Positions 314 through 36,422 of a stretch of DNA of 64,000 nt are shown in pieces. The notes beneath the pieces are model-generated. The model saw only the letters and a program-made list of their open reading frames with translations. It had not been told where the DNA came from and made no database searches. This DNA comes from Spironucleus salmonicida (Eukaryota). Every line of letters starts with the position of its first letter. Position 1 is the first letter of the stretch. Where the stretch lies: positions 744,001 through 808,000 of the forward strand of contig NC_090603.1 of NCBI RefSeq assembly GCF_000497125.1, written 5' to 3'. The translations under genes were made by a program, and so were the position numbers.

Positions 314-405
314 CTAATTTTAAAAGTTTTTAAATATATTTAGCAAATTTTAAATCATATTTTATATAAGAATAAAGATATTATGTATCTTTCCAATCCT
401 CTAAA

Positions 406-15655: not shown

Positions 15656-16537
15656 TCATGGTTTATAATAAACTTGACTTTTACTAATAAAATATTTTAG
15701 CCAGGTTGAAAAAATATTATTTTTGTAATTCGGTATATAATTTTTATGTTATATTTAAAGAATTAACAGAATTTTAGCACCAGTTGGAAGTGCGATCCAC
15801 TCGATCACGCATACTCTTTCTACGTCGATGACGAAGATCTGGGCGGTCGTGACCGAGAGAATGAAGCCCTCTCTGCTGAACAAAACTCCGAGGTCCTTCT
15901 GCATCTCTGGATGTTTTTGCATTACCGTTTCGAGCTGAACCGCGTCCTTGAGCGAGAGTGTCTGGTCGATGACGCTGTCCTCGACTGAGAAGGAAAAAAT
16001 CTTGCACGAGGGGCTGCATGCGTATATTTTGTTCCTGAAGAAGCAGCCACCGTGGAACGTATTTTTGCGGAGTTTGGTGCCTATCTGGACATCGGGGAGG
16101 AGCAAAAGCTTCGTGAGCGTGGAGACGATGATTTGGTGCTTGGACGAGTTGATCTGGACGATCGCGGAGTCGAACTGCTCGGAGAAAGCGACCTGGTCCG
16201 AGTCGATAGAGTACGTGAAGAGCTGCCCAGTGCTGGTCCCAAGGTACAGCAGCTCGTTGGCGAAGTGGATGGTGGTCACTCCCTTGACCTCGTAGGACGA
16301 GTGGTGGGTGGACTGGGTGAATATTTCGGTACCGAGGAAGCCCGTGGCTATGGTGAAGAACTGGAACGTGAGGAATTGTTGGACGACCTGCTTGATCTGG
16401 AGGGGGAGGCGCCTGCCGTCAACCGAGATCTGGGTGTCCGAGAGCTGGTAGACGAGGCCGTCGCGGGATACCTGGTACTGGTACTGGGGGCTGTAGTCCT
16501 TCGGCAGCGCGAATGAGCGCTGGGACTTGTGGTACAT
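15656..16537 (-). pseudogene. 3'-truncated copy of the HPS5/TECPR2-like gene with a tail from unique flanking DNA
   Basis: Matches 36423-37190 until 15770, then runs about 37 codons into AT-rich DNA to TGA at 15656; carries YACSP instead of YACRP. Confidence 0.75.
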
Positions 16538-16575
16538 TTTGAGGCTGGGCCGGATATACAGTGACAATATAATAA

Positions 16576-18444
<1,869 letters not shown>

Positions 18445-18464
18445 TTATTTAAATTTCTGCAAAA

Positions 18465-19577: not shown

Positions 19578-19709
19578 GTGGCGAGTATTACGTTTACGCC
19601 TGCCTTCGGGCGTCGGCCCTGGGCTGGGACGGAACTGCGCGCAGCAGGGCCAGCGAGTGTAGGGGTGCTCTTTCCATGCCCGAGGGCGAGCTCAACTGAA
19701 AACAATCGA

Positions 19710-20357
19710 TCACTTCTTGGACCTCCTGATGAAGTAGAACGCGAGGCCCCCGCCGATGGCGCCCACGGCCACCAGGGCTCCGATCACGATGCCCACTGTC
19801 GCGCCGGTCGAGAGTTTGTTGCTGGGATCCGATGGGTCAGGAACGGGGGCAGGTGGAACTGGAATAGGGGGTTCTGGCTCTGGCTCTGGGTTAGGATTGG
19901 GGTCAGGCACGGGAACCGCCTCGGCTGTCACGCACAGTATTCCGACCATCTCATAGCCCTTTTCGCACAGCGTGCAGTCGCCGGTTGAGTCAGTGGTCAT
20001 GTGGGGGAGGCATTGGTTGCAGGAGAAGCTAGTGCTGTCCACAGCACAGTTTGCACAGTTAGTTTTCTCCCCACAGGTACAGGCCGATGTCGAGGCTGCT
20101 GTACAAACAGTAAGCACACTGTCATTGCAGAACTTCGAATTAACCACGGCACTACACGTCCTCGTGCAGGTGCCGGTGATGGTGGTGGTGCCCAACGTTT
20201 TCTTGCTGTCGCACTCTGCGCAAAACGTAGCGGAGGTGCACACCTTGCAGCCCGCAGCGCACGGCATGCACTTCTTGGTAGTCGTGTCGCAGTAGCCAGA
20301 GCCTCCGTCGCGGCACTCCTTATTCGTGGTGCAGTCGATTCCATCCGCTGCTTCCAT
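19710..20357 (-). CDS. Cysteine-rich membrane protein (CRMP1-type) A, copy 1
   Basis: CxxC repeats, one CxC, Pro-rich stalk, TM helix, RRSKK tail; start at MEAADGIDC inferred from the paralog. Confidence 0.88.
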   Translation of the reverse strand: MEAADGIDCTTNKECRDGGSGYCDTTTKKCMPCAAGCKVCTSATFCAECDSKKTLGTTTITGTCTRTCSAVVNSKFCNDSVLTVCTAASTSACTCGEKTNCANCAVDSTSFSCNQCLPHMTTDSTGDCTLCEKGYEMVGILCVTAEAVPVPDPNPNPEPEPEPPIPVPPAPVPDPSDPSNKLSTGATVGIVIGALVAVGAIGGGLAFYFIRRSKK

Positions 20358-20789
20358 TCTTGTTTCGAAATATCCTGAGACGCAGTATTGGAACGATACA
20401 GACCGGAATGCGTTTTTTCCAAAGCCGGCAATATGCATTTATAACAGATAATACCGATATTTAAAAACAAACATTTCTAGTATAACCCAGTATCAGGGCC
20501 GAACCGCAACATCCCGAGCATGTCGCTGCCGAGGCACGGGACCAGCCTTCTCGACCCATGCCCATGCTCCTAACACTCGCACCGCGGGCACAGTCGGCCG
20601 GCACGGAGTCGCACCTCGCATGCCGCGCAGTGTGCGCCGTCGGTTCCGGAGAGGCAGGGGACGCTGGGCAGAGTTTTCGGAGCCGGTGCCGGGCAGCGTG
20701 GGCTGGAGTATCTCAGCACCTAGTACCGCCCTCGGGCGCGTGGCCGACCCACCCGCGAGAGTCGGGAAGGACCAGGGACCAAAGCCAGC

Positions 20790-21581
20790 TCACTCCGCGC
20801 CTTCGTCCCCCAGCACCATGTTGCCGTTCAGCCGCGCCTCCACGCTGCCCAGGGCCCCGCGCTCCACGATGCGGTCGAACTCGTCGGCCTGGTACTCGGC
20901 GCCGAGCAGGAAGTCCGCCATGCCCACGAGCGCGCCGCCGCTCCGCACGTTGCGGTAGAGCGTCTCCCCGCTGAGCAGGGCGCGGTCGGCGTCCGCGCTG
21001 GAGGTGGCGACGCACGCGAGCGCGACGACCCCGGCGAGGCAGCCCTGGGCCATGGCGAGGTAGGCGTGGAGGTCCGCGAGCACGAAGCGGTCGCGGTTCA
21101 GCAGGTGCAGCGCCGCGAGGCCGAGCACGACCGCCGCGAGCGCGAGGACGGCCCGGACGATGGCCAGCGCCTCGCCCCGGAGCGTGCGGAGCCCCCGGAG
21201 GCGGTCCACGCGCGCCTGGAGGCCGAGCAGCTCGAGGGCGCACAGGCAGTCCGCGGCGCCGAGCAGGGTGTAGAGCCCCAGGAAGAAGTAGAGCGAGGGG
21301 CGCGCCAGGAACACCACGGCCGGGGACAGGAAGGCGAGCCGGTAGACCTGCCCGACCGCCGAGCGCACCTTCAGCACCTCGTAGGTGAAGACCTGCCGCG
21401 CCTGGATCTGGGCCGTGCCCGCCCCCCGCAGCGCAGCGAGCAGGGACATCTTGCGGGGGCGCTCCTCGGCCTCGGCGGCGGCCTGCTCGGCGCGGGGCGG
21501 CTGCTTGGCCGGCCTGGCGAACTCCGGGATGCGCTGGGGCTGGAAGGCGTGGCGGCCGTCCTGCGGCACGACGGTGTACAT
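20790..21581 (-). CDS. Hypothetical membrane protein, copy 1
   Basis: 263-aa ORF with 3-4 hydrophobic helices and GC3 bias; ends GAG-TGA. Confidence 0.72.
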   Translation of the reverse strand: MYTVVPQDGRHAFQPQRIPEFARPAKQPPRAEQAAAEAEERPRKMSLLAALRGAGTAQIQARQVFTYEVLKVRSAVGQVYRLAFLSPAVVFLARPSLYFFLGLYTLLGAADCLCALELLGLQARVDRLRGLRTLRGEALAIVRAVLALAAVVLGLAALHLLNRDRFVLADLHAYLAMAQGCLAGVVALACVATSSADADRALLSGETLYRNVRSGGALVGMADFLLGAEYQADEFDRIVERGALGSVEARLNGNMVLGDEGAE

Positions 21582-21803
21582 TCTGGAGTTCGGGCGGCGG
21601 GGGTATAATAATGGGGTGGAGCGGGCCGGATGGAGCGGCGGGTGCGGGCCCCCGAAGCCACCTTTACGCCCCGAAGCCGCGCGGCGCCGCCTCAGCGCGC
21701 GAGTCGGCGTGAGTTGCGGAAATCACAAATCCCGAGCGCGAGCCAATATTATGTCCTCCCCGCCGATCCCCGCCAAATCCAAATCCGCCACTCCCTCAAT
21801 CTC

Positions 21804-22712
21804 ATGACGGACATGAAGAACGCCAACTTCCCCGTGGACGCCGACAACAGGACGTACCACCTGTACCTCAAGCGCGGCGAGGTGGCCCCCAGGGTCATCA
21901 CCGTCGGCGACCTCTCGCGCGCGCTGCTCTTCGCGAAGCTGCCCGGCTTCAAGATCATGTTCGTGAGGCAGGCGCCCAGGCTCTTCACGACCATCACCGG
22001 GACCTACAAGGACGTGCCCGTCACCATCATCGTCTCGCTCATGGGCATCCCCAACATGGACTTCACCGTCCGCGAGCTCCGCTACGTCATCGAGGGCCCC
22101 ATGTCCATGATCCGCATCGGCTCCTGCGGCTCCCCCGCCCCGTTCACCAAGGTGGGCGACCTGGTGGTGCCCAAGTTCCACCACACCGTGCTCCGCCTGC
22201 CCGACGCGTACCTGTCCACCGACGTCAGCGAGAAGTTCCACATCTCCAAGGCCATGCAGGGCGACGACAAGCTCCACGAGCTGCTCATGGCGGAGTGCAA
22301 GAAGACCGGCAAGAAAGTCTACGACGGCCACAACATCTCCGCCTGCTCCTTCTACTCCTCCCAGGGCAGGACCGACGCCAACTTCCAGGACCACAACGAG
22401 GCGCTCATCGACTACCTCGTGGGCCAGATCCCCGACCTCGTCGGCATCGAGATGGAGTCCGCCCACCTCATCGACCTCGCCCGCATCGCCACCGTGCCCA
22501 TCTACGCCGCCGCCGGCCAGCTCGTGCTCGCCCAGAGGAAGTCCCAGGCCTTCCTCTCCAACGACGAGAAGCACGCCGTCGAGCGCGAGATCGGCATCGC
22601 CGCCCTCGAGACCGCCATCGCCTTCGTGATCCCGGGCATGGTCGAGCAGCCCGGCGCCGTCTGGAAGGAGTTCAAAGGTGAGATCCTCGGCGACGCCAAG
22701 GCCATCCAGTGA
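21804..22712 (+). CDS. Uridine/purine nucleoside phosphorylase (PNP/UDP family), copy 1
   Basis: RTYHL, ITVGD, MGIPNMD, IRIGSCGS, SFYSSQGR, IEMESA; ATG preceded by a C-rich tract. Confidence 0.88.
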   Translation: MTDMKNANFPVDADNRTYHLYLKRGEVAPRVITVGDLSRALLFAKLPGFKIMFVRQAPRLFTTITGTYKDVPVTIIVSLMGIPNMDFTVRELRYVIEGPMSMIRIGSCGSPAPFTKVGDLVVPKFHHTVLRLPDAYLSTDVSEKFHISKAMQGDDKLHELLMAECKKTGKKVYDGHNISACSFYSSQGRTDANFQDHNEALIDYLVGQIPDLVGIEMESAHLIDLARIATVPIYAAAGQLVLAQRKSQAFLSNDEKHAVEREIGIAALETAIAFVIPGMVEQPGAVWKEFKGEILGDAKAIQ

Positions 22713-22721
22713 CCGTGTTCC

Positions 22722-23594
22722 TCACTCCCCCCTGCTCTCCGCCGCGAGGCGCCTCAGCTCCGCCTCCACCTCGCGCCGCACGCGGCCGTCCGGGAAGGGC
22801 GCCGTGTCGTACTTCCCGGGGCCCAGGCCCTCCGCTCCCCGCGGCGGCTGCTGCATCCGCCGGTCGTGCTCGTTCACGCGCCACTCGGGGGCGTGGGCGC
22901 TCACCTTCTTGAACGCCGCCTGCACGCCCGCGTCGTAGTCCGTGCCCCGGCGCACCTTGAGCGCCTTGTCGGAGCGGTTGATGCCCGGCCCGCCCCCGGG
23001 GGCCTCGCGCCGCCCGCACTGCCCCACCTGGGCGCCCGCCATGGCCCGCTCGGCCCGCACGCCCAGCTTGCGCTCGCGCATCTCCTTCAGCCGCTGCCGG
23101 TCCGCGTCGCCCAGCGCCCAGGCCGCCAGGGGCCCGAGCCGGCTGGTCTGGAGCTGGGACAGCGGCCGCGGCCTGCCCCGCTGCTCGAAGTCGAAGCGGT
23201 ACGAGCGCGCGATGTAGGCGCTGGTCTTGCGCTCCTGCTCCGCGGCCCGCTCCCGCTCGGCCCGCTGCTGGGCGCGCAGCTCGGTGCCCAGGACGTAGGG
23301 GCGCTGCGTGCCGTGGCCGTGGAAGGCGCGGACGGCGCGGAGGAGCTGCTGCTGCTCGGTGGCGTGGTACTTGCCGATGTCCCGGACCACGCGCTCCTCG
23401 AAGTCGGAGGAGGAGGACTCGAACCACTGCCTCTTGGCGGGCGCGAGGTTGTTCTGGATGCGCTGCCGGTTCGTCGGCACGGGCCGGTGCTCCAGGTAGT
23501 GCAGGATGGCGTCCGCCTCCTCGCACACCACCTCCCGCGGCACCACGCGCACCGTGAGCTTCGCCGCCGAGGACAGCGAGCGCTGGGTCTGCAT
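22722..23594 (-). CDS. Hypothetical protein with a SHIPPO-like GPGKY motif, copy 1
   Basis: 290-aa ORF with GC3 bias; GLGPGKYD; ends GAG-TGA. Confidence 0.68.
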   Translation of the reverse strand: MQTQRSLSSAAKLTVRVVPREVVCEEADAILHYLEHRPVPTNRQRIQNNLAPAKRQWFESSSSDFEERVVRDIGKYHATEQQQLLRAVRAFHGHGTQRPYVLGTELRAQQRAERERAAEQERKTSAYIARSYRFDFEQRGRPRPLSQLQTSRLGPLAAWALGDADRQRLKEMRERKLGVRAERAMAGAQVGQCGRREAPGGGPGINRSDKALKVRRGTDYDAGVQAAFKKVSAHAPEWRVNEHDRRMQQPPRGAEGLGPGKYDTAPFPDGRVRREVEAELRRLAAESRGE

Positions 23595-23825
23595 TTTGGA
23601 GCGGGGTCGGCCCGGCCCCCAGCTGCCCGCACCGCGCCGCCAGGGCCGCCCGGAGCGCGTCGCTGGCCGCGGCGTCCCACTGCAGCTTCGCCCCCGCGAG
23701 CAGCCGCCCGAACGCCAGCACCACGTACGGCCCGCAGTCAGCGCCGTTCTCCTAAGCTAATTTATTCAATGTGAGATTATAATTTAACATTACTGAAACT
23801 AATTAATAAAGAATAAAACAACAAA

Positions 23826-24173
23826 TCATAACATTTCAATCTGATGCAACATAGCAGACACATCAATACTATTTAAAATTGCGACAGCACCTGCTGACCT
23901 CGATACTTAAGCAGCTCTACCGATACCTTCTTACTCAGATACAAATACGTAAGGTATACCTTTATCTTCACAAACTAATGGTAAAGCTAAAGCAACTTCT
24001 AATGGAGATGCATTAGCAGCAATAATAATCAAAGCTGCTTAACCACGCATTGCTTACTTTGTTGCTTCGTTTATACCAACTTTCAGACTAGACTGCTTCT
24101 AAGCGGTTTCGATAAGATTGTAAATTTATCCTTCAAGATTTTTAGTAGCAAGAGGAGTAGCGCGAGGGTCCAT
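23826..24173 (-). CDS. SNU13: Snu13/15.5K (L7Ae family) RNA-binding protein
   Basis: [58 protein letters not shown]; 115 aa. Confidence 0.85.
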
Positions 24174-24303
24174 TTGAGGAGTGGAGCGTGAAAAGCTAAT
24201 AATCACTTTTATATTATATAAAATGCATTATATTTTATGTAATTACTAGCTATTATTATACAATAATTTAAACTTTTAAATTAAATTTTACTTGAAATAC
24301 AAA

Positions 24304-25032
24304 ATGAATAGGAACCTATTCTGCACACTATACCAGCCAAAATAATTAATTGACAACACTTAGGAAGTACGGCGCCAGAAAGAGCTGAATCTAATTAACT
24401 AATTCCAAATTAACAGATAAATGCAATATTACAAACAATAATCGATCGCAGACCAGCCATAAATTCCTGAAAACTACATTGTGAACCAGCGAAATGCCCA
24501 AATAAGCGGCAAAAAGCTCGAAATCGCTCTCCTGAACACCCCGCAGCCAATCTACATCAACAACACGCCCAAAACGCACTGCCAAAATGACTCCCTCGCA
24601 ATCAACTACAAACTCTCTAAACCGACGCCATCGACCCCCAAAAACGTCAAAAAGCTCGCAAACGACGCATTTGCAGTCCTCGAAAAAACGAAAGTGAAAC
24701 AGCGCATTTTCGAGGGCAAAACTGCTTCGAAAATCGACTACAAAATCCACTTCGTGCCCGAGTACGAACGCCGCGCGAACGAGCGCAAAAAGTACGAAAT
24801 CGATGTCCAGCTTTTCGACATATTAATGTATTAAAGGCAGAATGGCACATTCGTAGAAACCGAAAAGCACGACAGAATACCGCTGATGCGCCAGTTCGAG
24901 GAGGTGGAGCAGGCGGTTCCGGAGGGGCTCAGGAAGTACAAGGACACGATGAGCCAGGAGCAGTTCCAGCAGCTGAAGCTGCAGAACAACCTGGCCGAGG
25001 AGGCGCTCAAAATCCTAGGCGCGCAGAAGTGA
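24304..25032 (+). CDS. Hypothetical protein (242 aa)
   Basis: Code-6 ORF containing track ORF 24481-24834; ends AAG-TGA. Confidence 0.72.
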
Positions 25033-25046
25033 AAATCGTGGATTGC

Positions 25047-26990
25047 TCACTGCGCGTATGCCGGAATCTCCATGCGGTCTATCGGGCAGACCCGGTTCTC
25101 GTCCAGCCAGCTCCTGAGGCAATCGGAGTGGAAAATATGGCCACAGGGCGTTATCCAGGCTTGGTAGGTTTCTTTCTCGATCAAGTTTTCGGATAATAGC
25201 TTTAATTCTTACTATTTGAATTTTTTTCCGCAAATATTCAAAATTTCGTACGCGTTTTGGGCCTTCAGGATTTCGACCTCAGCGAGGCAGATTTAGCAGG
25301 CTACTTTGATGTTTTCTGGGTGGATCAGAGCGAAACAGCAGGTATTTGCAAGGGGGAGAATTTGCTCGTATTTGTGCAGTTCTGGGACGTTTTGGTTGAA
25401 AAGCTCGCTGTGGGAATGACCTGGGTTGTCGCATTTCGAATTTCCCGTGAAAGGAACTGGAATTAAAGCAGAAAAGAAATCTGAAAATTGAATATTTTTA
25501 AGTGTCTCTGCGTTAAAATTCTGGCTATGATAAGAAAATTGGTTGACTTTCGCGTTGAAAAGCCCGAATCGAGGGCCTAAAAAGTACTAAAGGATGTAGA
25601 TTAGGTTCTGAATGAGCAAAACACATAAAATAGTGATTAACCAGGATTTACGAAATTCAAATTAAAATGCATTTTCTACTCCAAAGCAGTATATCAGCAA
25701 AAATACTTTTACCACACAATTTACTAGAGTGAAATATAGAGGATAACATACTTTGCCATCGGCTTTTATAAATTTATGCAAAATTGCAATTAGCAGGTAA
25801 CTGCTCATAATAAGACACAAAATTAAAGTTGCCAAATAAGGAACGAAAAATGCAATTAAAAGGAGAATTAGACCAGGACAAATCATAGAAAATGTTAGGC
25901 CTAGAAGTACGAATAAGTACTTTTTAAAGTTAGTCATAAATTAATTCGCAAAGATTTAAATTTTTAAAACTGCATGTAAGAGAACTGGCACAAGAACTAC
26001 AAATCCAAAGAATGCTAGTAAGGCAGCGATATTTCTGAGGCCTGGTATTTGAGAAGTTGAAATTATGAAAAGAATTGAACATAAATATTCTGAGTTCAGA
26101 TGGAAGATGACAGAAGGGAGTGAAAGTGCTTAAATTCTAGCTGGAGATTGATATTTAATAACATAAGTAACAGCTACAAATGCGAGTAAGAACTCAAGAA
26201 CAAGGAAAACTGCAAAAAAGCTAGCTCCCGCATGCTCACTTTAAGCTGAATTAGAAATGGGGCCTATCCCTGAAAATTCAAAAGAGCAGTTGTTAGAAAA
26301 AAGTTAGTATGTAATTTATGGCACTTCTTCTAAAGTATCAGATATTTTTTTAGATAGAATATGCCATTAGCGTCTTATTTGATTGTCTGGAAGGTATTAG
26401 GATGTTATACTGTTTCTAGTAGTTTTTCCATATTCAAAAAGGAGGTATACATCACATGACTTTCGTTTAATTTCGTTATTGTCTGCCTTTTCAATAATTT
26501 TTGGATCATTAGTATAAAATATATTAAGAAGTTAGCTGCTTGGGTTTTTGAGGAACTCGATGGCCTATGTTTCATTAAATGTTATTTTAGCAGACTCAAA
26601 AAGCGTGAAAAATACTCCCTATAAAATGCCTTTTTAAGTTTCTGGGTAGTATACTCCCTTAAAATCAAGTGCTTTTGACTGGTCGGATGAAAAGTTACCA
26701 TCTATGTAGAAAACAGATGCAGAAATATTTCTAGGTAAAGTTGCGCGGCTGGTCTTATTTTCTTGGGTCTCATTATAGAACTTTGTATCGAACGTTGTAT
26801 CAATGATACTGACACCTACTGGGAAACTTCCATCTTTAGCTGTACGCTTAAATGCAAGCAATTTTTATGAACCTTATGATAATTTAGCAGTAGTACCAAA
26901 TGATAGAGATGCTGATAAATCCTTCTAGTCAGCAATAACTGGATATACTGGAGGCTTTGGTCCATATGCTAAAATTAGTATAATCTACAT
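25047..26990 (-). CDS. Transmembrane RING-H2 E3 ligase, Tul1/Dsc1-like
   Basis: Lumenal N-terminus, multiple TMs, QYFLGPRFGL, CQIC...TPCGHIFHSDCLRSWLDENRVCPIDR; 647 aa. Confidence 0.85.
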
Positions 26991-27034
26991 TCAGTGAAAT
27001 GGTGATTGATAAATTTTATACCAATATATCTAAG

Positions 27035-29338
27035 ATGTATCGTGCTTTTTCATCCCACTAGTCTTTCTCAATGTCAAACAAATGGGAAATCTTACCTCCA
27101 AAATACTTTACTTTCACAGAAATCAATGCGTATACATTTCAAGAATAAGCATTATAATTCAAGGATTCAAATATAACAAAACCTAAACTTCTTTAAGTTA
27201 AGGCATAAAACAGAGTACCTGAACGTAATTACATCATTTATAATTAGCTTGAAAATTCTCTTAATACATTTAATTTGAATCATACTGAGCATATAAGTTT
27301 AGATTAGAGGCCACGACTATCTTCCTAATTTGTACCACCTAAATTGAAACCTCTGTAAATATAAATAGATATTTAGGCAAAATTAGATAAAATAAAGAGA
27401 AAATAGATGACTCTATTACCAATTAAAAAGGTTATCGAAAAACCTACAATATTATAGAATCTAAAAGACAGCACTATAGGAAAATAAATCACCAAACACC
27501 AGATTTAATAATAAACTTACGTGAAAGAAATAAAAGAGTAGTAATTTTTGTAACAACAACGAAAAATAGAGTTTGAATTTAATTCCAATCTATTTATAGA
27601 TGAAAATGAGTTAGAAAAAAATAGTAAGAAATATGTAAATTAGTTGGAAGTCGATGAATTAGTGTAATTACTTTAAGGAAAATATTAGCAGCCAGTTGAA
27701 ATTTAATAGATTCAAAAAGATTAAAAGCTTGAAATTTTAGCGTAAATTGCTAATGAATCTAGCATTTTAGATGATTAAACCTTATTTAACGATAACGTGC
27801 TTAGTATTTATTGTCAAGGGATGCATGCACCTTATACATTAAGTACATAGTAGTTCAACTATGGTGAATGGATGGATGATTAAGGAATTTTATTCGCTTT
27901 GGAAGATATTAATTGTAAAGATGCTTATTTTGTCGACCCATTGATTTTTTATAATGAAGAAATTCTTAAACGTGAAAGTGAAAAAATCAAACAATTTGAC
28001 TATTAATATATATGTGGTGCTGTATGTTAGCATGAGCATTGGATAGGAATATATTAATAGCGTGGTATAAATAAAATTTATTGCTTTGATGGATTGAATG
28101 TTGGTGTTGATGAAAGATCAGCAGATATGTTCCACAAGTTATTGACTTCTGGGGGAAGATTAATACAAGAACGTGAGAAATTTAAGCTAGTTATGATTGG
28201 AAATAGATTAGAGAGAAGATCTGAGATAAATGTAGATAAAATTAGAATCCCTGCTTAGGAGAACGGCGCTGACTGCGGGCCGTACGTGGTGCTGGCGTTC
28301 GGGCGGCTGCTCGCGGGGGCGAAGCTGCAGTGGGACGCCGCGGCCAGCGACGCGCTCCGGGCGGCCCTGGCGGCGCGGTGCGGGCAGCTGGGGGCCGGGC
28401 CGACCCCGCTCCAAAATGCAGACCCAGCGCTCGCTGTCCTCGGCGGCGAAGCTCACGGTGCGCGTGGTGCCGCGGGAGGTGGTGTGCGAGGAGGCGGACG
28501 CCATCCTGCACTACCTGGAGCACCGGCCCGTGCCGACGAACCGGCAGCGCATCCAGAACAACCTCGCGCCCGCCAAGAGGCAGTGGTTCGAGTCCTCCTC
28601 CTCCGACTTCGAGGAGCGCGTGGTCCGGGACATCGGCAAGTACCACGCCACCGAGCAGCAGCAGCTCCTCCGCGCCGTCCGCGCCTTCCACGGCCACGGC
28701 ACGCAGCGCCCCTACGTCCTGGGCACCGAGCTGCGCGCCCAGCAGCGGGCCGAGCGGGAGCGGGCCGCGGAGCAGGAGCGCAAGACCAGCGCCTACATCG
28801 CGCGCTCGTACCGCTTCGACTTCGAGCAGCGGGGCAGGCCGCGGCCGCTGTCCCAGCTCCAGACCAGCCGGCTCGGGCCCCTGGCGGCCTGGGCGCTGGG
28901 CGACGCGGACCGGCAGCGGCTGAAGGAGATGCGCGAGCGCAAGCTGGGCGTGCGGGCCGAGCGGGCCATGGCGGGCGCCCAGGTGGGGCAGTGCGGGCGG
29001 CGCGAGGCCCCCGGGGGCGGGCCGGGCATCAACCGCTCCGACAAGGCGCTCAAGGTGCGCCGGGGCACGGACTACGACGCGGGCGTGCAGGCGGCGTTCA
29101 AGAAGGTGAGCGCCCACGCCCCCGAGTGGCGCGTGAACGAGCACGACCGGCGGATGCAGCAGCCGCCGCGGGGAGCGGAGGGCCTGGGGCCCGGGAAGTA
29201 CGACACGGCGCCCTTCCCGGACGGCCGCGTGCGGCGCGAGGTGGAGGCGGAGCTGAGGCGCCTCGCGGCGGAGAGCAGGGGGGAGTGAGGAACACGGTCA
29301 CTGGATGGCCTTGGCGTCGCCGAGGATCTCACCTTTGA
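27035..29338 (+). CDS. Ulp1/SENP-family (C48) cysteine protease with an abnormally long read-through tail
   Basis: GEWMDDQGI, HEHWIGI, YCFDGL, PAQENGADCGPYV; crosses the 28253 breakpoint; first in-frame TGA is 29336. The true 3' end is uncertain. Confidence 0.75.
28416..29288 (+). CDS. Hypothetical protein with a SHIPPO-like GPGKY motif, copy 2
   Basis: Protein identical to 22722-23594. Confidence 0.68.
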   Translation: MQTQRSLSSAAKLTVRVVPREVVCEEADAILHYLEHRPVPTNRQRIQNNLAPAKRQWFESSSSDFEERVVRDIGKYHATEQQQLLRAVRAFHGHGTQRPYVLGTELRAQQRAERERAAEQERKTSAYIARSYRFDFEQRGRPRPLSQLQTSRLGPLAAWALGDADRQRLKEMRERKLGVRAERAMAGAQVGQCGRREAPGGGPGINRSDKALKVRRGTDYDAGVQAAFKKVSAHAPEWRVNEHDRRMQQPPRGAEGLGPGKYDTAPFPDGRVRREVEAELRRLAAESRGE

Positions 29339-30206
29339 ACTCCTTCCAGACGGCGCCGGGCTGCTCGACCATGCCCGGGATCACGAAGGCGATGGCGGTC
29401 TCGAGGGCGGCGATGCCGATCTCGCGCTCGACGGCGTGCTTCTCGTCGTTGGAGAGGAAGGCCTGGGACTTCCTCTGGGCGAGCACGAGCTGGCCGGCGG
29501 CGGCGTAGATGGGCACGGTGGCGATGCGGGCGAGGTCGATGAGGTGGGCGGACTCCATCTCGATGCCGACGAGGTCGGGGATCTGGCCCACGAGGTAGTC
29601 GATGAGCGCCTCGTTGTGGTCCTGGAAGTTGGCGTCGGTCCTGCCCTGGGAGGAGTAGAAGGAGCAGGCGGAGATGTTGTGGCCGTCGTAGACTTTCTTG
29701 CCGGTCTTCTTGCACTCCGCCATGAGCAGCTCGTGGAGCTTGTCGTCGCCCTGCATGGCCTTGGAGATGTGGAACTTCTCGCTGACGTCGGTGGACAGGT
29801 ACGCGTCGGGCAGGCGGAGCACGGTGTGGTGGAACTTGGGCACCACCAGGTCGCCCACCTTGGTGAACGGGGCGGGGGAGCCGCAGGAGCCGATGCGGAT
29901 CATGGACATGGGGCCCTCGATGACGTAGCGGAGCTCGCGGACGGTGAAGTCCATGTTGGGGATGCCCATGAGCGAGACGATGATGGTGACGGGCACGTCG
30001 TTGTAGGTCCCGGTGATGGTCGTGAAGAGCCTGGGCGCCTGCCTCACGAACATGATCTTGAAGCCGGGCAGCTTCGCGAAGAGCAGCGCGCGCGAGAGGT
30101 CGCCGACAGTGATGACCCTGGGGGCCACCTCGCCGCGCTTGAGGTACAGGTGGTACGTCCTGTTGTCGGCGTCCACGGGGAAGTTGGCGTTCTTCATGTC
30201 CGTCAT
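29298..30206 (-). CDS. Uridine/purine nucleoside phosphorylase, copy 2
   Basis: Same as 21804-22712 except GTYNDV vs GTYKDV. Confidence 0.88.
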   Translation of the reverse strand: MTDMKNANFPVDADNRTYHLYLKRGEVAPRVITVGDLSRALLFAKLPGFKIMFVRQAPRLFTTITGTYNDVPVTIIVSLMGIPNMDFTVRELRYVIEGPMSMIRIGSCGSPAPFTKVGDLVVPKFHHTVLRLPDAYLSTDVSEKFHISKAMQGDDKLHELLMAECKKTGKKVYDGHNISACSFYSSQGRTDANFQDHNEALIDYLVGQIPDLVGIEMESAHLIDLARIATVPIYAAAGQLVLAQRKSQAFLSNDEKHAVEREIGIAALETAIAFVIPGMVEQPGAVWKEFKGEILGDAKAIQ

Positions 30207-30428
30207 GAGATTGAGGGAGTGGCGGATTTGGATTTGGCGGGGATCGGCGGGGAGGACATAATATTGGCTCGCGCTCGGGATTTGTGATTTCCGCAACTCA
30301 CGCCGACTCGCGCGCTGAGGCGGCGCCGCGCGGCTTCGGGGCGTAAAGGTGGCTTCGGGGGCCCGCACCCGCCGCTCCATCCGGCCCGCTCCACCCCATT
30401 ATTATACCCCCGCCGCCCGAACTCCAGA

Positions 30429-31220
30429 ATGTACACCGTCGTGCCGCAGGACGGCCGCCACGCCTTCCAGCCCCAGCGCATCCCGGAGTTCGCCAGGCCG
30501 GCCAAGCAGCCGCCCCGCGCCGAGCAGGCCGCCGCCGAGGCCGAGGAGCGCCCCCGCAAGATGTCCCTGCTCGCTGCGCTGCGGGGGGCGGGCACGGCCC
30601 AGATCCAGGCGCGGCAGGTCTTCACCTACGAGGTGCTGAAGGTGCGCTCGGCGGTCGGGCAGGTCTACCGGCTCGCCTTCCTGTCCCCGGCCGTGGTGTT
30701 CCTGGCGCGCCCCTCGCTCTACTTCTTCCTGGGGCTCTACACCCTGCTCGGCGCCGCGGACTGCCTGTGCGCCCTCGAGCTGCTCGGCCTCCAGGCGCGC
30801 GTGGACCGCCTCCGGGGGCTCCGCACGCTCCGGGGCGAGGCGCTGGCCATCGTCCGGGCCGTCCTCGCGCTCGCGGCGGTCGTGCTCGGCCTCGCGGCGC
30901 TGCACCTGCTGAACCGCGACCGCTTCGTGCTCGCGGACCTCCACGCCTACCTCGCCATGGCCCAGGGCTGCCTCGCCGGGGTCGTCGCGCTCGCGTGCGT
31001 CGCCACCTCCAGCGCGGACGCCGACCGCGCCCTGCTCAGCGGGGAGACGCTCTACCGCAACGTGCGGAGCGGCGGCGCGCTCGTGGGCATGGCGGACTTC
31101 CTGCTCGGCGCCGAGTACCAGGCAGACGAGTTCGACCGCATCGTGGAGCGCGGGGCCCTGGGCAGCGTGGAGGCGCGGCTGAACGGCAACATGGTGCTGG
31201 GGGACGAAGGCGCGGAGTGA
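30429..31220 (+). CDS. Hypothetical membrane protein, copy 2
   Basis: Protein identical to 20790-21581. Confidence 0.72.
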   Translation: MYTVVPQDGRHAFQPQRIPEFARPAKQPPRAEQAAAEAEERPRKMSLLAALRGAGTAQIQARQVFTYEVLKVRSAVGQVYRLAFLSPAVVFLARPSLYFFLGLYTLLGAADCLCALELLGLQARVDRLRGLRTLRGEALAIVRAVLALAAVVLGLAALHLLNRDRFVLADLHAYLAMAQGCLAGVVALACVATSSADADRALLSGETLYRNVRSGGALVGMADFLLGAEYQADEFDRIVERGALGSVEARLNGNMVLGDEGAE

Positions 31221-31652
31221 GCTGGCTTTGGTCCCTGGTCCTTCCCGACTCTCGCGGGTGGGTCGGCCACGCGCCCGAGGGCGCTACTAGGTGCTGAGAT
31301 ACTCCAGCCCACGCTGCCCGGCACCGGCTCCGAAAACTCTGCCCAGCGTCCCCTGCCTCTCCGGAACCGACGGCGCACACTGCGCGGCATGCGAGGTGCG
31401 ACTCCGTGCCGGCCGACTGTGCCCGCGGTGCGAGTGTTAGGAGCATGGGCATGGGTCGAGAAGGCTGGTCCCGTGCCTCGGCAGCGACATGCTCGGGATG
31501 TTGCGGTTCGGCCCTGATACTGGGTTATACTAGAAATGTTTGTTTTTAAATATCGGTATTATCTGTTATAAATGCATATTGCCGGCTTTGGAAAAAACGC
31601 ATTCCGGTCTGTATCGTTCCAATACTGCGTCTCAGGATATTTCGAAACAAGA

Positions 31653-32300
31653 ATGGAAGCAGCGGATGGAATCGACTGCACCACGAATAAGGAGTGCCGC
31701 GACGGAGGCTCTGGCTACTGCGACACGACTACCAAGAAGTGCATGCCGTGCGCTGCGGGCTGCAAGGTGTGCACCTCCGCTACGTTTTGCGCAGAGTGCG
31801 ACAGCAAGAAAACGTTGGGCACCACCACCATCACCGGCACCTGCACGAGGACGTGTAGTGCCGTGGTTAATTCGAAGTTCTGCAATGACAGTGTGCTTAC
31901 TGTTTGTACAGCAGCCTCGACATCGGCCTGTACCTGTGGGGAGAAAACTAACTGTGCAAACTGTGCTGTGGACAGCACTAGCTTCTCCTGCAACCAATGC
32001 CTCCCCCACATGACCACTGACTCAACCGGCGACTGCACGCTGTGCGAAAAGGGCTATGAGATGGTCGGAATACTGTGCGTGACAGCCGAGGCGGTTCCCG
32101 TGCCTGACCCCAATCCTAACCCAGAGCCAGAGCCAGAACCCCCTATTCCAGTTCCACCTGCCCCCGTTCCTGACCCATCGGATCCCAGCAACAAACTCTC
32201 GACCGGCGCGACAGTGGGCATCGTGATCGGAGCCCTGGTGGCCGTGGGCGCCATCGGCGGGGGCCTCGCGTTCTACTTCATCAGGAGGTCCAAGAAGTGA
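31653..32300 (+). CDS. Cysteine-rich membrane protein (CRMP1-type) A, copy 2
   Basis: Same protein as 19710-20357. Confidence 0.88.
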   Translation: MEAADGIDCTTNKECRDGGSGYCDTTTKKCMPCAAGCKVCTSATFCAECDSKKTLGTTTITGTCTRTCSAVVNSKFCNDSVLTVCTAASTSACTCGEKTNCANCAVDSTSFSCNQCLPHMTTDSTGDCTLCEKGYEMVGILCVTAEAVPVPDPNPNPEPEPEPPIPVPPAPVPDPSDPSNKLSTGATVGIVIGALVAVGAIGGGLAFYFIRRSKK

Positions 32301-32553
32301 TCGATTGTTTTCAGTTGAGCTCGCCCTCGGGCATGGAAAGAGCACCCCTACACTCGCTGGCCCTGCAACGTGGGCTTAGGAGCAGCGACATGTTCGGGAT
32401 GTTGCGGTACTTCCCATATACTAAATTATACTAGAAACTTTTGATCTTAAATATCGGTATTACCACCTATAATGCATACTGTCGGCTTTGGAAAAAACAC
32501 ATTCCGGTCTGTATCGTTCCAATACTGCGTCTCAGGATATTTCCAAAATAAGA

Positions 32554-33258
32554 ATGCAAACAGTGGATGGAATCGACTGTACCACGAACAAGCAGTGCCG
32601 CGACGGAGGCTCTGGCTACTGCGATGCATCCACCAAGAAGTGCATGCCGTGCTCTGAGGGCTGCAAGGTGTGCACCTCCGCTACCTTCTGCGCAGCCTGT
32701 GATGCTGGAAGTGGTGCTGGCTTGACCACACTCAACGGGCAGTGTGCAACGGAGTGTAAGCAGTAGGTGGTCAACAAGGTGTGTCAGGATGGTGTTAGCG
32801 GCTTCTGCTCCGCGGACTCCCCGATCCCGTGCTACTGCGATGAGGCCTCCAACTGCGCTGCGTGCGACTAGGTGAATAACAACTGGTCATGCTATGCGTG
32901 CTTTAAGAACATGACCAAGGACGGGAAAGGGCTATGCTCACTGTGCCAGCCTGGCTTCGAGAAGGTCGGGGTCCTGTGTCTCGCGGTGGAAGTGGACCCC
33001 AATCCCAATCCGGACCCAAATCCGCCTGGTCCGGTTCCCGTGCCTGACCCCAATCCTAACCCAGAGCCAGCGCCAGAACCCCCTATTCCAGTTCCACCTA
33101 CCCCCGTGCCTGGCCCATCAGACCCATCTGACCCTGCAGATCCCAGCAACAAACTCTCGACCGGCGCGACAGTGGGCATCGTGATCGGAGCCCTGGTGGC
33201 CGTGGGCGCCATAGGCGGGGGCCTCGCGTTCTACTTCATCAGGAGGTCCAAGAAGTGA
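32554..33258 (+). CDS. Cysteine-rich membrane protein (CRMP1-type) B
   Basis: [19 protein letters not shown]...; two internal TAG=Gln join track ORFs 32488-32766 and 32872-33258; TM plus RRSKK. Confidence 0.88.
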
Positions 33259-33391
33259 TCGATTGTTTTCAGTTGAGCTCGCCCTCGGGGAATCGAAAGA
33301 GCACCCCTACACTCGCTGGCCCTGCTGCGCGCAGTTCCGTCCCAGCCCAGGGCCGACGCCCGAAGGCAGGCGTAAACGTAATACTCGCCAC

Positions 33392-34495
33392 TCACTTCTT
33401 GCCCTTCTTGCCTTTCTTCTTCCCGCTCTTGACCTCCACGTACAGCGCGCGCTTGGGGATCTTCGCGAACTTGGCCCCGAACTGGTCCAGGGCCCGCGAG
33501 ACGTAGTCCCCTTGGTCGTGGATGTCCGTGAGGATGCCGGCGGGCCGCGTCCGCAGCACCCCGTCGTACTCGAGCAGCTCGGTCGCCGCCTCGGACAGCC
33601 GCTGGCACTCGGCGACGGCCAGCTGGCACTGGTTGGTGTAGACGTGGCTCTCGCCGACGGAGCGCCGGAACTGGGCACCCAGGCGCCGGAACTCCTCGTT
33701 CAGCGCCAGGACGTGCTGCTTGGTCTTGCGGTTGTCCATCTGGTCCGGGAAGTCGAACCGGAGCTGGCCCTCGGGGACCTCCGCCCTCGTCAGCCCGACG
33801 AAGCCCAGGCGCTCGATCTCGGCCTGGCTCACGGTGTCGACGATATCGAACCGGCCCTCCGTCTGCTGCTCGAAGCGCGGGTTGTCCAGACGCATGGTCT
33901 CGGGCTGGACGACGACCAGGTTCTCCTTCTGGTACGCCATCCGCTGCTCCCCGTACTTCACGCTCAGGCCGCTCTGCAGCCCCCGCAGCGCGCACACCGC
34001 CACGTCGTAGCTCGCCATCGTGCTGATCGCGCTGGACGCGCCCTCGGCCGAGAGGGCCAGCGTCTCCGCCTGCCGGAAGAACCGGAGCGCCAGGCCGAAC
34101 TTGTGCAGCGAGAAGTACAGGAAGCCGATGTAGAAGCGCGGGACGGCGCGGTCGGCGGTCTGCAGGTTCTGGGAGATGTCGATCGCGTCGATGAGCGAGA
34201 CCATGGCGAGCTGGAGGAACTTCGCGGGGTCCGGGGTGAGCTCCGCGTACGCGTCGTACTGCACCATGAGGAACAGCAGGTAGCCGTTCATCGTGTGGAA
34301 GTAGCACTTGTAGTAGTCGAAGAGCGCGTCCCGCTCCTGAAACAGCGCGTAGGCCTCGTAGAGGCGCGTGCGGGCCTCCTGGAAGCTCCTCTGCTGGAAG
34401 TAGTAATGGGTCTGATCCAGCAATTTATTTATCTCCGCCGAGCAGGAAGCCGGGGGGAGCAGCGGCGGCAGCAAAAGTGTAGGCTGGAATGACAT
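33392..34495 (-). CDS. TPR-like protein with Lys/Gly-rich tail, copy 2
   Basis: Same as 18465-19577 minus one GKK unit. Confidence 0.75.
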   Translation of the reverse strand: MSFQPTLLLPPLLPPASCSAEINKLLDQTHYYFQQRSFQEARTRLYEAYALFQERDALFDYYKCYFHTMNGYLLFLMVQYDAYAELTPDPAKFLQLAMVSLIDAIDISQNLQTADRAVPRFYIGFLYFSLHKFGLALRFFRQAETLALSAEGASSAISTMASYDVAVCALRGLQSGLSVKYGEQRMAYQKENLVVVQPETMRLDNPRFEQQTEGRFDIVDTVSQAEIERLGFVGLTRAEVPEGQLRFDFPDQMDNRKTKQHVLALNEEFRRLGAQFRRSVGESHVYTNQCQLAVAECQRLSEAATELLEYDGVLRTRPAGILTDIHDQGDYVSRALDQFGAKFAKIPKRALYVEVKSGKKKGKKGKK

Positions 34496-34515
34496 TTTTG
34501 CAGAAATTTAAATAA

Positions 34516-36384
<1,869 letters not shown>

Positions 36385-36422
36385 TTATTATATTGTCACT
36401 GTATATCCGGCCCAGCCTCAAA

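What the first reader, a model, noticed from the sequence alone, without database searches (positions are those of the whole stretch)
27035..29338. Ulp1 protease crossing the palindrome junction has no stop and reads through the whole next gene
Seen: the C48 catalytic His and Asp are encoded in the AT-rich spacer, but the Gln/Cys motif (AQENGADCG) begins exactly at the arm boundary 28253. After the expected domain end (~28390) there is no in-frame TGA and no AGTGA signal. The frame continues about 310 Ala/Arg/Gly/Pro-rich codons over gene 28416-29288 in another frame and stops at 29336, past that gene's AGTGA. Inference: GC-biased conversion may have erased the stop (only TGA is available in code 6), giving a dual-coded region, a long disordered tail or a non-stop mRNA.
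Basis: partly seen in the sequence, partly recalled or inferred. Interest (0 to 1): 0.7.

Follow-up and report, generated by a model that had tools for sequence, protein, structure and literature searches.

The report
Stop-less Ulp1 gene at palindrome edge
A protease gene of a diplomonad protist has no stop codon where it runs into a GC-enriched mirror-image duplication, and the long tail it then appears to read is a by-product of the neighbouring gene's extreme base composition, not a second layer of coding.

Summary
Under code 6, one frame is open from 27035 (or 26852) to the TGA at 29336-29338. It carries a weak but above-threshold Peptidase_C48 hit. The catalytic His and Asp lie in the AT-rich spacer. 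The Gln (a TAG codon) and Cys lie in the first 24 bases of the right palindrome arm, which starts at 28253. No in-frame TGA and no AGTGA follows the end of the domain (about 28405).

The GC jump coincides with all four arm edges and cuts through two genes, which fits GC-biased arm-to-arm conversion. This scan already reported that process on other pieces of the same genome. The 307-codon tail is not dual coding. Gene X (28416-29288) has 0 T among its 291 third positions, and those positions are the tail's first codon positions, so TGA cannot occur there. Codon-permuted gene X kept that frame open in 2000 of 2000 trials.

What remains odd is the missing stop itself, which in this organism is also the poly(A) signal. 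The most likely cause is a stop/poly(A)-signal loss that leaves read-through, non-stop transcripts (inferred). The real 3' end of the mRNA could not be determined. Interest is modest.

The parts
27035..28414 (+). Coding part of the divergent C48 (Ulp1-like) protease gene: 460 codons, 406 in the AT-rich spacer and 54 in the GC-rich arm. An alternative upstream ATG at 26852 overlaps the divergent RING gene.
   Evidence: ORF under code 6. Pfam PF02902 scores 25.0/22.3 bits against a cut-off of 20.7. There are 0 in-frame TGA in 406 AT-rich codons, and 4 of 20000 shuffles reach that. GC3 periodicity in this frame holds up to 28414.
28037..28090 (+). Catalytic His (28037-28039, in HEHW) and Asp (28088-28090, in CFDGL), both in the AT-rich spacer.
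   Evidence: Read. These positions lie inside the Pfam-aligned stretch, residues 76-194 of the domain query. The motif consensus is recalled, not taken from a call.
28253..28276 (+). First 24 bases of the right arm, reading AQENGADC. The oxyanion Gln is a TAG codon (28256-28258) and the catalytic Cys is at 28274-28276.
   Evidence: Arm start, sequence. The 61-aa piece 28232-28414 alone scores 16.8 bits to C48 profile positions 161-206 of 217.
28379..28381 (+). In-frame TGC. It is the last T-first codon in the Ulp1 frame before 29306 and lies about where a C48 protein should end. It is a candidate relic of the lost TGA (GGTGC now, AGTGA then). This is speculative.
   Evidence: List of T-first codons in the frame. 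Profile position 206 of 217 falls at 28370-28372. The history is inference only.
28415..29338 (+). Shadow ORF: 307 sense codons plus TGA in the Ulp1 frame, lying over gene X. It is not a selected coding region.
   Evidence: First positions are G 162, C 136, A 6, T 3, and the three T lie after gene X's stop. GC3 is 0.51. No Pfam hit. It stays open in 2000 of 2000 codon permutations of gene X.
28416..29288 (+). Gene X, a 290-aa orphan protein with its own AAAATG start and an AGTGA stop/poly(A) signal at 29284-29288.
   Evidence: GC3 is 0.99; third positions are G 159, C 130, A 2, T 0. The only database hit is the window's own 290-aa protein. A contig of run X6 (guessed RNA) covers 28429-28677.
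29298..30335 (-). Convergent PNP/UDP-family phosphorylase gene. Its AGTGA is at 29302-29298 and its poly(A) tail joins at 29286.
   Evidence: Pfam PNP_UDP_1, 95.5 bits. A contig of run X5 begins at 29286 and is preceded by a T-run and adapter (table 7).
28253..37190 (.). Right palindrome arm, GC-rich. It is the original copy, because both edge genes are whole on this side.
   Evidence: Pairs I1 and I2 are 100% complementary. GC steps are at 28253 and 37190. The HPS5-like gene 36381-38618 continues into the right flank.
15770..23757 (.). Left palindrome arm, the inverted copy. It carries truncated copies of both edge genes.
   Evidence: The inner end is preceded by an L7Ae-family gene, not by a Ulp1 5' part. 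The truncated 5' copy of the HPS5-like gene is ORF 15656-16648(-).
23596..23757 (-). Orphan copy of the last 54 Ulp1 codons in the left arm, identical to 28253-28414, with no 5' part upstream.
23758..28252 (.). AT-rich unique spacer of 4495 nt. It holds the L7Ae-family gene, ORF 24223-25032, the RING E3 gene and the Ulp1 5' part.
   Evidence: A 4555-nt contig in runs X1 and X4 equals the spacer plus 30 nt of each arm.

Best explanation
What it is. A very divergent but intact-looking C48 (Ulp1-like) cysteine-protease gene of a code-6 diplomonad. The features here and earlier notes of this scan point to Spironucleus salmonicida. The gene starts at 27035 in the AT-rich spacer of a palindrome with 8-9-kb arms. 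Its last 54 domain codons (28253-28414) lie inside the GC-rich right arm.

Shown:
- The gene has no TGA at its natural end. In this organism TGA is the only stop and is also the core of the poly(A) signal AGTGA.
- The frame stays open for 307 more codons only because it lies one base off gene X. Gene X's third codon positions are 99% G/C with no T, so no T-first codon, and therefore no TGA, can arise in the Ulp1 frame. The tail is a passive shadow frame, not dual coding.

Inferred history:
- The right arm is the original locus.
- An inverted duplication with one breakpoint inside Ulp1 made the left arm.
- Repeated arm-to-arm gene conversion with a GC bias then rewrote everything inside the arms. 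For Ulp1, GC3 went from about 0.2 to 0.95 and the Gly/Ala/Arg/Pro share from 0.17 to 0.50.
- This process fixed an AT-to-GC change in the gene's stop/poly(A) signal. The change may have arisen first in the unselected orphan copy in the left arm.

Inferred consequence:
- Ulp1 transcripts lack a 3'-end signal of their own and run into gene X.
- They would be cut 9-14 nt after gene X's AGTGA, at about 29297-29302. That is 34 or more nt before the first in-frame TGA at 29336.
- They would therefore be non-stop mRNAs. The gene is impaired or at the start of pseudogenisation.
For: Gene and domain:
- ORF and C48 hit.
- Catalytic H, D, Q and C are in order and in frame across the junction.
- The arm-side 61 aa alone scores 16.8 bits to profile positions 161-206 of 217. 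The domain should therefore end near 28405, 11 nt before gene X's ATG.

No stop:
- The only in-frame TGA is at 29336 and the only AGTGA at 29284.
- There is no TGA in any frame between 28273 and 28920.
- The X1 contig covers 28253-30500 with 0 gaps.

Shadow frame:
- The GC3-near-1.0 signal sits in the Ulp1 frame up to 28414 and moves to gene X's frame from 28415.
- Gene X third positions contain 0 T of 291.
- Codon permutations leave the frame open in 2000 of 2000 trials.
- TGA-free off-frame ORFs of 300-400 codons accompany the other arm genes too.

Conversion setting:
- The arms are 100% identical over 4114 and 3796 nt.
- GC steps lie within 50 nt of all four edges.
- Inside the arm the HPS5-like gene has GC3 0.79 and 0 TAA/TAG Gln codons. 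Outside it has GC3 0.29 and 20 such codons.
- Ulp1 Gln codons: the spacer has 36 TAA/TAG against 9 CAA/CAG. The arm has 1 TAG, 4 nt from the edge, against 3 CAA/CAG.
- PMC9509377 (passages) reports duplicated regions at 44.7% GC against 30.7% for the rest of the genome.

Remaining constraint in the arm part: GC at position 2 is 32/54 and at position 3 is 51/54, Fisher p = 2e-5.

Poly(A) rule:
- PMC3916229 and PMC1805757 (passages) describe AGTGA overlapping the stop. The tail starts 9-14 nt after the stop in 122 of 134 ESTs.
- In this window a cDNA-type contig of run X5 shows the convergent gene's tail 12 nt after its stop.

Comparison: the other 11 genes examined in the arm and spacer all end in TGA at their expected end, 8 of them as AGTGA.
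Against: - No outgroup or ortholog was found. The searches gave 0 hits at E <= 0.001 among 1.84 billion representatives, 0 hits in the word-indexed search, and 0 relatives confirmed by tblastn among 116 pattern matches in metagenome contigs. So neither the existence nor the place of an ancestral stop is shown, and the AT-to-GC direction is not polarised.
- The mRNA 3' end was not observed. Only contigs could be laid, and contigs cannot show ends.
- The codon periodicity of the arm part and the intact catalytic residues suggest the gene is still under selection. That sits uneasily with a transcript that cannot be terminated.
- The C48 assignment rests on one modest profile score. The spacer part alone gives no hit, and the fold could not be checked (pLDDT 30).
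Confidence: 0.6

Rival explanations
1. The gene is already a dead relic. The C48 copy at this locus is a dispensable, lineage-specific paralogue that lost its 3' end signals and is no longer expressed as protein. Another SUMO protease elsewhere in the genome does the work.
For: - There is no stop and no poly(A) signal.
- The C-terminal 54 residues have drifted to 50% Gly/Ala/Arg/Pro.
- No sequence relative was found anywhere.
- Table S1 of PMC3916229 lists one 'Ulp1 protease family protein' among proteins without a Giardia homologue. I could not check whether that entry is this gene.
Against: - The 406 AT-rich codons have no TGA, and only 4 of 20000 shuffles reach that.
- All four catalytic residues are present.
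- Position-2 versus position-3 GC periodicity persists in the arm part, p = 2e-5.
- The genome could not be searched for paralogues, because none is held.
Confidence: 0.2
2. The gene is functional and its stop codon is made at the RNA level. Cleavage after an in-frame UG (28379-28380, or 28331-28332), followed by polyadenylation, would create UGA, as described for many nuclear genes of Blastocystis.
For: - The in-frame TGC at 28379-28381 lies about where C48 proteins end: profile position 206 of 217 is at 28370-28372. It is the last T-first codon before 29306.
- The arm part still shows coding periodicity.
- The mechanism exists in another protist (PMC4159000; search listing and start of the abstract only).
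Against: - No AGTGA or similar signal lies 9-14 nt upstream of either UG.
- The known signal in this organism is the TGA itself.
- No transcript end was observed here.
- The passages I read in the Spironucleus papers do not mention this mechanism.
Confidence: 0.1
3. The long frame is real. Either it is a dual-coded region or functional disordered tail over gene X, or a +1 ribosomal shift near 28410-28416 gives a Ulp1-gene X fusion that ends at gene X's AGTGA.
For: - The frame is open for 307 codons.
- Gene X's frame is exactly +1 from the Ulp1 frame, and it is open upstream to 28197.
Against: - The openness is forced by composition: 2000 of 2000 permutations, and 687 of 5000 plain shuffles.
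- Gene X's silent sites are saturated to G/C regardless of what that does to the tail's residues.
- The tail has GC3 0.51 and no Pfam hit.
- On a transcript ending at gene X's poly(A) site the tail has no stop anyway.
- No slippery or shift-prone motif was recognised at 28405-28418 (read).
Confidence: 0.03
4. This is a sequence or assembly artefact. An indel or base error hides the true stop, or the junction between AT-rich and GC-rich DNA is chimeric.
For: Identical arms could result from polishing with multi-mapped reads. GC-rich DNA is hard to sequence. In run X4 no contig was laid on 28283-28397.
Against: - The X1 contig covers 28253-30500 with 0 gaps.
- The 4555-nt contig in X1 and X4 equals the spacer plus 30 nt of both arms.
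- No TGA exists in any frame from 28273 to 28920, so no single indel could supply a stop before gene X.
- The C48 domain continues in frame across the junction, with a code-6 TAG at its conserved Gln.
- Arm genes also use TAA/TAG as Gln: UCH 7, CRMPs 1 and 2.
- Caveat: X1 may be the source sample, so this is a second assembly method, not an independent sample.
Confidence: 0.04

Closest known systems
GC-biased arm-to-arm gene conversion in large palindromes (primate X/Y palindromes; PMC8981503, search listing and start of the abstract only), and GC-rich duplicated regions of S. salmonicida (PMC9509377 and PMC1805757, passages)
   Same: Near-identical inverted arms that carry genes. GC is raised inside the arms only. 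The sharp G+C shifts and high-GC3 genes are already described for this species, and duplicated regions are reported at 44.7% against 30.7% GC.
   Different: The effect here is far stronger: GC3 goes from about 0.2 to about 1.0 within some 40 nt, inside a single ORF. It also appears to have cost a gene its stop codon. In the two genome papers the words 'gene conversion', 'palindrom' and 'inverted' had 0 occurrences wherever I searched for them, so the published accounts do not give this mechanism.
Dual-use stop codon / poly(A) signal (AGUGA) of Spironucleus, and WGURAA of Giardia (PMC3916229, PMC1805757, PMC11529991; passages)
   Same: Eight of the 11 neighbouring genes examined end in AGTGA. 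A cDNA-type contig shows a tail 12 nt after such a stop.
   Different: This gene has neither the TGA nor the signal. Losing the one motif removes both translation termination and 3'-end formation.
Stop-loss variants with C-terminal extension or non-stop mRNAs (for example PMC12817085, listing only)
   Same: The natural stop is lost and the next in-frame stop lies far downstream.
   Different: With only one stop codon in the code, and a downstream gene whose third positions lack T, no back-up stop can occur for 307 codons. The expected poly(A) site comes before it.
Polyadenylation-completed stop codons in Blastocystis nuclear genes (PMC4159000, listing and start of the abstract)
   Same: A nuclear gene without a stop encoded in the genome. 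An in-frame UG lies at the expected protein end.
   Different: There is no evidence here for cleavage at that site, and no associated motif was seen.
Shadow (off-frame) ORFs in GC-rich coding DNA (general knowledge, recalled; no paper read)
   Same: Long stop-free frames overlap real high-GC3 genes. They are seen for the other arm genes as well.
   Different: Here the shadow frame is joined in frame to a real upstream gene, because that gene's own stop is missing.

Membership tests
Peptidase C48 (Ulp1/SENP, clan CE) | Profile match above the curated threshold (Pfam PF02902) | tested here: met
   25.0 bits (domain query) and 22.3 bits (whole ORF) against a cut-off of 20.7. The margin is modest. 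The spacer part alone gives no hit, and the arm-side 61 aa gives 16.8 bits.
Peptidase C48 (Ulp1/SENP, clan CE) | Catalytic His, Asp and Cys with the oxyanion-hole Gln, in the order H-D-Q-C | tested here: met
   HW at 28037-28042, D at 28088-28090, Q (TAG) at 28256-28258, C at 28274-28276, all in one frame and inside the aligned stretch. The consensus motifs are recalled.
Peptidase C48 (Ulp1/SENP, clan CE) | Papain-like CE-clan fold | tested here: inconclusive
   The single-sequence AlphaFold2 model has mean pLDDT 30.1, so no fold search was made. phmmer against PDB sequences found no SENP or Ulp1.
Peptidase C48 (Ulp1/SENP, clan CE) | Detectable sequence relatives among known C48 proteins | tested here: not met
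   0 hits at E <= 0.001 among 1.84 billion representatives and 0 in the word-indexed search. Membership therefore rests on the Pfam profile and the motifs only.
Peptidase C48 (Ulp1/SENP, clan CE) | SUMO/Nedd8 deconjugating activity | not testable with these tools
   Needs an enzyme assay.
Palindrome homogenised by GC-biased gene conversion | Near-identical inverted arms with a unique spacer | tested here: met
   4114 nt and 3796 nt at 100%, spacer 4495 nt. The spacer contig with 30 nt of both arms is present in two runs.
Palindrome homogenised by GC-biased gene conversion | GC enrichment confined to the arms, including silent sites, with the step at the arm edges | tested here: met
   Steps lie within 50 nt of 15770, 23757, 28253 and 37190. 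There are GC3 steps inside two edge genes.
Palindrome homogenised by GC-biased gene conversion | Excess of AT-to-GC substitutions polarised by an outgroup | not testable with these tools
   No orthologous sequence was found.
Overlapping (dual-coding) genes | Constraint or coding signature in both frames | tested here: not met
   The tail frame has GC3 0.51, and its first positions are 97% G/C, dictated by gene X. It has no Pfam hit and stays open in 2000 of 2000 permutations.
Stop codon completed by polyadenylation (Blastocystis type) | mRNA 3' ends at an in-frame U or UG followed by poly(A) | not testable with these tools
   Only contigs could be laid. Read-level 3' ends are needed.

The most novel reading that the evidence does not exclude
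A still-functional protease gene in an organism with a single stop codon has no stop encoded in the genome. Either its UGA is created by cleavage after the in-frame UG at 28379-28380 plus polyadenylation (a Blastocystis-like mechanism not reported for diplomonads in the passages I read), or the cell routinely tolerates non-stop translation of this mRNA. More widely, GC-biased conversion in duplicated regions of this genome would then erode the combined stop/poly(A) signal as a matter of course, and the RNA-processing machinery would compensate.
Probability: 0.1. Interest if true: 0.75.

Novelty: new member of a known kind. Interest (0 to 1): 0.35.

Why it matters
The locus is a clean natural experiment. 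Within one ORF, and so within one transcript, silent-site GC jumps from about 0.2 to about 1.0 exactly where the DNA gains a partner to convert with. That argues against expression-linked codon selection and for a process that depends on the duplication.

It also shows a cost of that process in a genome where TGA is both the only stop and the core of the poly(A) signal. One AT-to-GC change can remove translation termination and 3'-end formation together, and the high GC3 of the next gene removes any back-up stop.

For annotators, it is a warning that very long Ala/Arg/Gly/Pro-rich extensions in GC-rich diplomonad regions are shadow frames. If the gene proves to be expressed and functional, it would open the question of how a diplomonad ends such an mRNA.

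Tried and rejected
- Whole-genome search for paralogues: no genome is held for this window.
- Sequence relatives of the protease: 0 hits in the word-indexed search restricted to 253-805 aa. phmmer of the 222-aa domain against 1.84 billion representatives gave 0 hits. PDB sequences gave only an irrelevant hit at E = 0.49. In metagenome contigs, 116 pattern matches gave 0 relatives by tblastn. The C-termini of orthologues therefore could not be compared. The self-protein was absent too, so these collections say nothing about how the gene is annotated publicly.
- Structure: the single-sequence AlphaFold2 model had pLDDT 30.1 and was unusable, so no fold search was run.
I did not pursue it.
- RNA: no RNA holder is listed. 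Runs X5-X8 are only guessed to be RNA. One X5 contig carries a T-run and adapter, which fits cDNA. All laid runs were contigs, which cannot give transcript ends, strand or level. In X5 and X6, most of 27036-28069 and 28275-28428 had no contig laid, and this is not evidence on expression. The X5 contig 28070-28274 passes the junction by only 22 letters, below the 31 needed to count as bridging.
- Earlier scan notes near this place: none. Word searches for stop loss in Spironucleus gave nothing relevant.
- Papers: the first broad palindrome/GC search returned unrelated papers. In PMC3916229, PMC9509377 and PMC1805757 I found no passage about genes lacking a stop. Supplement files 13-15 of PMC3916229 were not searched and file 7 is unreadable. 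The full gene tables may hold this gene's public model.
- An intron supplying the 3' end: rejected. Only 4 introns are annotated in the genome (PMC9509377 Table 1), and I saw no AT-rich intron-like stretch in 28253-28415.
- Foreign or contaminant origin of the GC-rich DNA: rejected (see the artefact rival).
Full report
**Setting.** The window alternates between AT-rich DNA (20-35% GC) and sharply bounded GC-rich blocks of 56-71% GC.
- The finding lies at the inner edge of a large palindrome. The left arm is 15770-23757 and the right arm 28253-37190. Two segments, of 4114 nt and 3796 nt, are 100% complementary, and the spacer is 4495 nt.
- In 50-nt windows GC steps from 0.16 to 0.44 at 15770, from 0.68 to 0.18 at 23757, from 0.28 to 0.68 at 28253, and from 0.46 to 0.34 at 37190.
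- A 4555-nt contig assembled from short reads in two runs equals the spacer plus 30 nt of each arm. The structure is therefore not peculiar to this assembly, although those runs may come from the source sample.
- The organism reads TAA and TAG as Gln, and most of its genes end in AGTGA. Together with earlier notes of this scan on the same genome, this points to Spironucleus salmonicida.

**Checking the observation.**
- Under code 6 one frame is open from 26852 to the TGA at 29336-29338. The ATG at 27035 is the first that does not overlap the divergent RING gene 25047-26990.
- The 406 codons from 27035 to 28252 contain no TGA, while the other five frames have 4-23. Only 4 of 20000 shuffles lacked an in-frame TGA.
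- Pfam Peptidase_C48 scores 22.3 bits on the whole ORF and 25.0 bits on the 222-aa domain, against a cut-off of 20.7.
- Reading in this frame, HEHW (His 28037-28039) and CFDGL (Asp 28088-28090) lie in the spacer. The arm begins at 28253 with GCT TAG GAG AAC GGC GCT GAC TGC GGG, which reads AQENGADCG. The conserved Gln is a TAG codon and the Cys is at 28274-28276.
- The 61 residues from 28232 alone score 16.8 bits to profile positions 161-206 of 217, while the spacer part alone gives no hit. Position 206 falls at 28370-28372, so the domain should end near 28405, 11 nt before the next gene's ATG at 28416.
- The only in-frame TGA is at 29336, and the only + strand AGTGA between 28000 and 29400 is at 29284.
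- All parts of the observation are confirmed.

**The tail is a shadow frame.**
- In the Ulp1 frame GC3 is 0.15-0.30 up to 28234 and 1.00 and 0.95 in 28295-28414. From 28415 on, the near-1.0 signal sits at the frame's first position, which is the third position of gene X (28416-29288).
- Gene X's third positions are G 159, C 130, A 2, T 0. The Ulp1 frame therefore has no T-first codon between 28379 and 29306 and cannot contain TGA.
- Permuting gene X's codons left the frame open in 2000 of 2000 trials. Even plain shuffles of the tail were open in 687 of 5000.
- The other arm genes are accompanied by TGA-free off-frame ORFs of 300-400 codons.
- The tail has GC3 0.51, is 73% Gly/Ala/Arg/Pro and has no Pfam hit.
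- Gene X is real. It has an AAAATG start and an AGTGA stop, GC3 is 0.99, a contig of run X6 (guessed RNA) covers 28429-28677, and the protein collection holds it as a 290-aa singleton.
- Gene X's silent sites have gone to G/C regardless of the residues this forces on the tail. The tail sequence is therefore not constrained, and dual coding is rejected.

**What remains odd.**
- The protease gene has no stop at its natural end. It is the only one of the 12 genes I examined in the right arm and spacer without one. The other 11 end in TGA, 8 of them as AGTGA.
- No TGA exists in any frame between 28273 and 28920, and the X1 contig covers 28253-30500 without gaps. A sequencing indel therefore cannot restore a stop before gene X.

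**History (inferred).**
- Both genes that straddle arm edges are whole only on the right. These are Ulp1 at 28253 and an HPS5-like beta-propeller gene, 36381-38618, at 37190.
- The left arm carries an orphan copy of the last 54 Ulp1 codons (23596-23757, minus strand), preceded by an L7Ae-family gene. It also carries a truncated 5' copy of the propeller gene.
- So the right arm is the original and the left arm an inverted copy.
- The compositional change follows the arm edges inside both genes. The propeller gene has GC3 0.79 and 0 TAA/TAG Gln codons inside the arm, against 0.29 and 20 outside. Ulp1 has 36 TAA/TAG against 9 CAA/CAG in the spacer, and 1 TAG (4 nt from the edge) against 3 CAA/CAG in the arm.
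- One mRNA cannot have two expression levels, so this points to a process that depends on having a partner copy. The best candidate is arm-to-arm conversion with a GC bias.
- The species' sharp G+C shifts and high-GC3 genes were described in 2007 (PMC1805757, passages). The higher GC of duplicated regions (44.7% against 30.7%) was described in 2022 (PMC9509377, passages).
- In those papers and in PMC3916229, the words 'gene conversion', 'palindrom' and 'inverted' had 0 occurrences wherever I searched for them.
- This scan has already reported GC-rich conversion palindromes on other pieces of the same genome.

**Mechanism of the stop loss (inferred).**
- In this organism TGA is the only stop, and AGTGA doubles as the poly(A) signal. 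The tail starts 9-14 nt after the stop in 122 of 134 ESTs (PMC1805757; PMC3916229; PMC11529991).
- In this window an X5 contig begins at 29286 and is preceded by a T-run and adapter. That places the tail of the convergent phosphorylase mRNA 12 nt after its stop.
- A single AT-to-GC change in AGTGA would remove termination and 3'-end formation together. Biased conversion could fix such a change, possibly after it arose in the unselected orphan copy.
- A candidate relic is the in-frame TGC at 28379-28381, in the context GGTGC. This is speculation.
- Without a signal of their own, transcripts should run through gene X and be cut at about 29297-29302, before the in-frame TGA at 29336. They would then be non-stop mRNAs.

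**Is the gene alive?**
- For: the ORF is intact, all four catalytic residues are present, and the arm part keeps codon periodicity (GC at position 2 is 32/54, at position 3 is 51/54, p = 2e-5).
- Against: there is no stop, the C-terminal residues have drifted to 50% Gly/Ala/Arg/Pro (0.17 upstream), and no relatives were found by any search.
- Table S1 of PMC3916229 lists one 'Ulp1 protease family protein' without a Giardia homologue. I could not check whether that is this gene.

**Limits.** No orthologue, no read-level RNA ends, no usable structure model (pLDDT 30.1) and no genome to search for paralogues.

**Verdict.** The long read-through is a compositional artefact. The missing stop is real and is best explained as collateral damage of GC-biased conversion in a code with one stop codon. 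This is a new example of a known process, of modest interest unless RNA data show that the gene is expressed and terminated in an unusual way.

Noticed in passing
window 1-316 and 5104-5419: A second inverted repeat, 316 nt at 100% with a 4787-nt spacer, whose left arm is cut by the start of the window. GC steps up at both inner edges (0.08-0.24 to 0.36-0.44), and the block 5104 to about 12000 is GC-enriched (0.38-0.50). It looks like another GC-rich palindrome.
   Followed up: partly
window 36381-38618 (+), with a truncated copy at 15656-16648 (-): An HPS5-like beta-propeller gene (Pfam PF23756, 43.5 bits) straddles the outer arm edge at 37190. Inside the arm GC3 is 0.79 with 0 TAA/TAG Gln codons; outside it is 0.29 with 20. 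The left-arm copy is a 5' fragment that runs 38 codons into the flank before a TGA.
   Followed up: yes
window 32367-33394 versus 19566-19643: The right arm holds about 1 kb more than the left, between the two perfect segments. The right arm has two tandem cysteine-rich membrane protein genes (31536-32300 and 32554-33258), and 131-162-nt partial repeats (I4-I6) link the regions. So the arms appear to differ in copy number.
   Followed up: partly
window 36381-36384: The TGA of the UCH (ubiquitin hydrolase) gene 34489-36384 overlaps the ATG of the next gene in the sequence ATGA. There is no intergenic DNA, and the expected poly(A) site lies inside the next gene.
   Followed up: no
window 29284-29302: Convergent genes with AGTGA signals 10 nt apart (+ at 29284-29288, - at 29302-29298). 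The phosphorylase mRNA's poly(A) junction at 29286 falls on the first base of gene X's stop codon, so the two 3' ends overlap antisense.
   Followed up: partly
window 29189 and 30000: Short-read contigs carry C where the window has G: at 30000 in runs X1 and X4, and at 29189 in X4. Both arms of the window are identical there. These could be allelic or arm-specific variants, or a polishing error.
   Followed up: no
window 24500-25100: A GC-richer patch (0.44-0.62 in 100-nt windows) inside the otherwise AT-rich spacer, at the convergent 3' ends of ORF 24223-25032 and the RING gene. It has no partner copy within this window.
   Followed up: no
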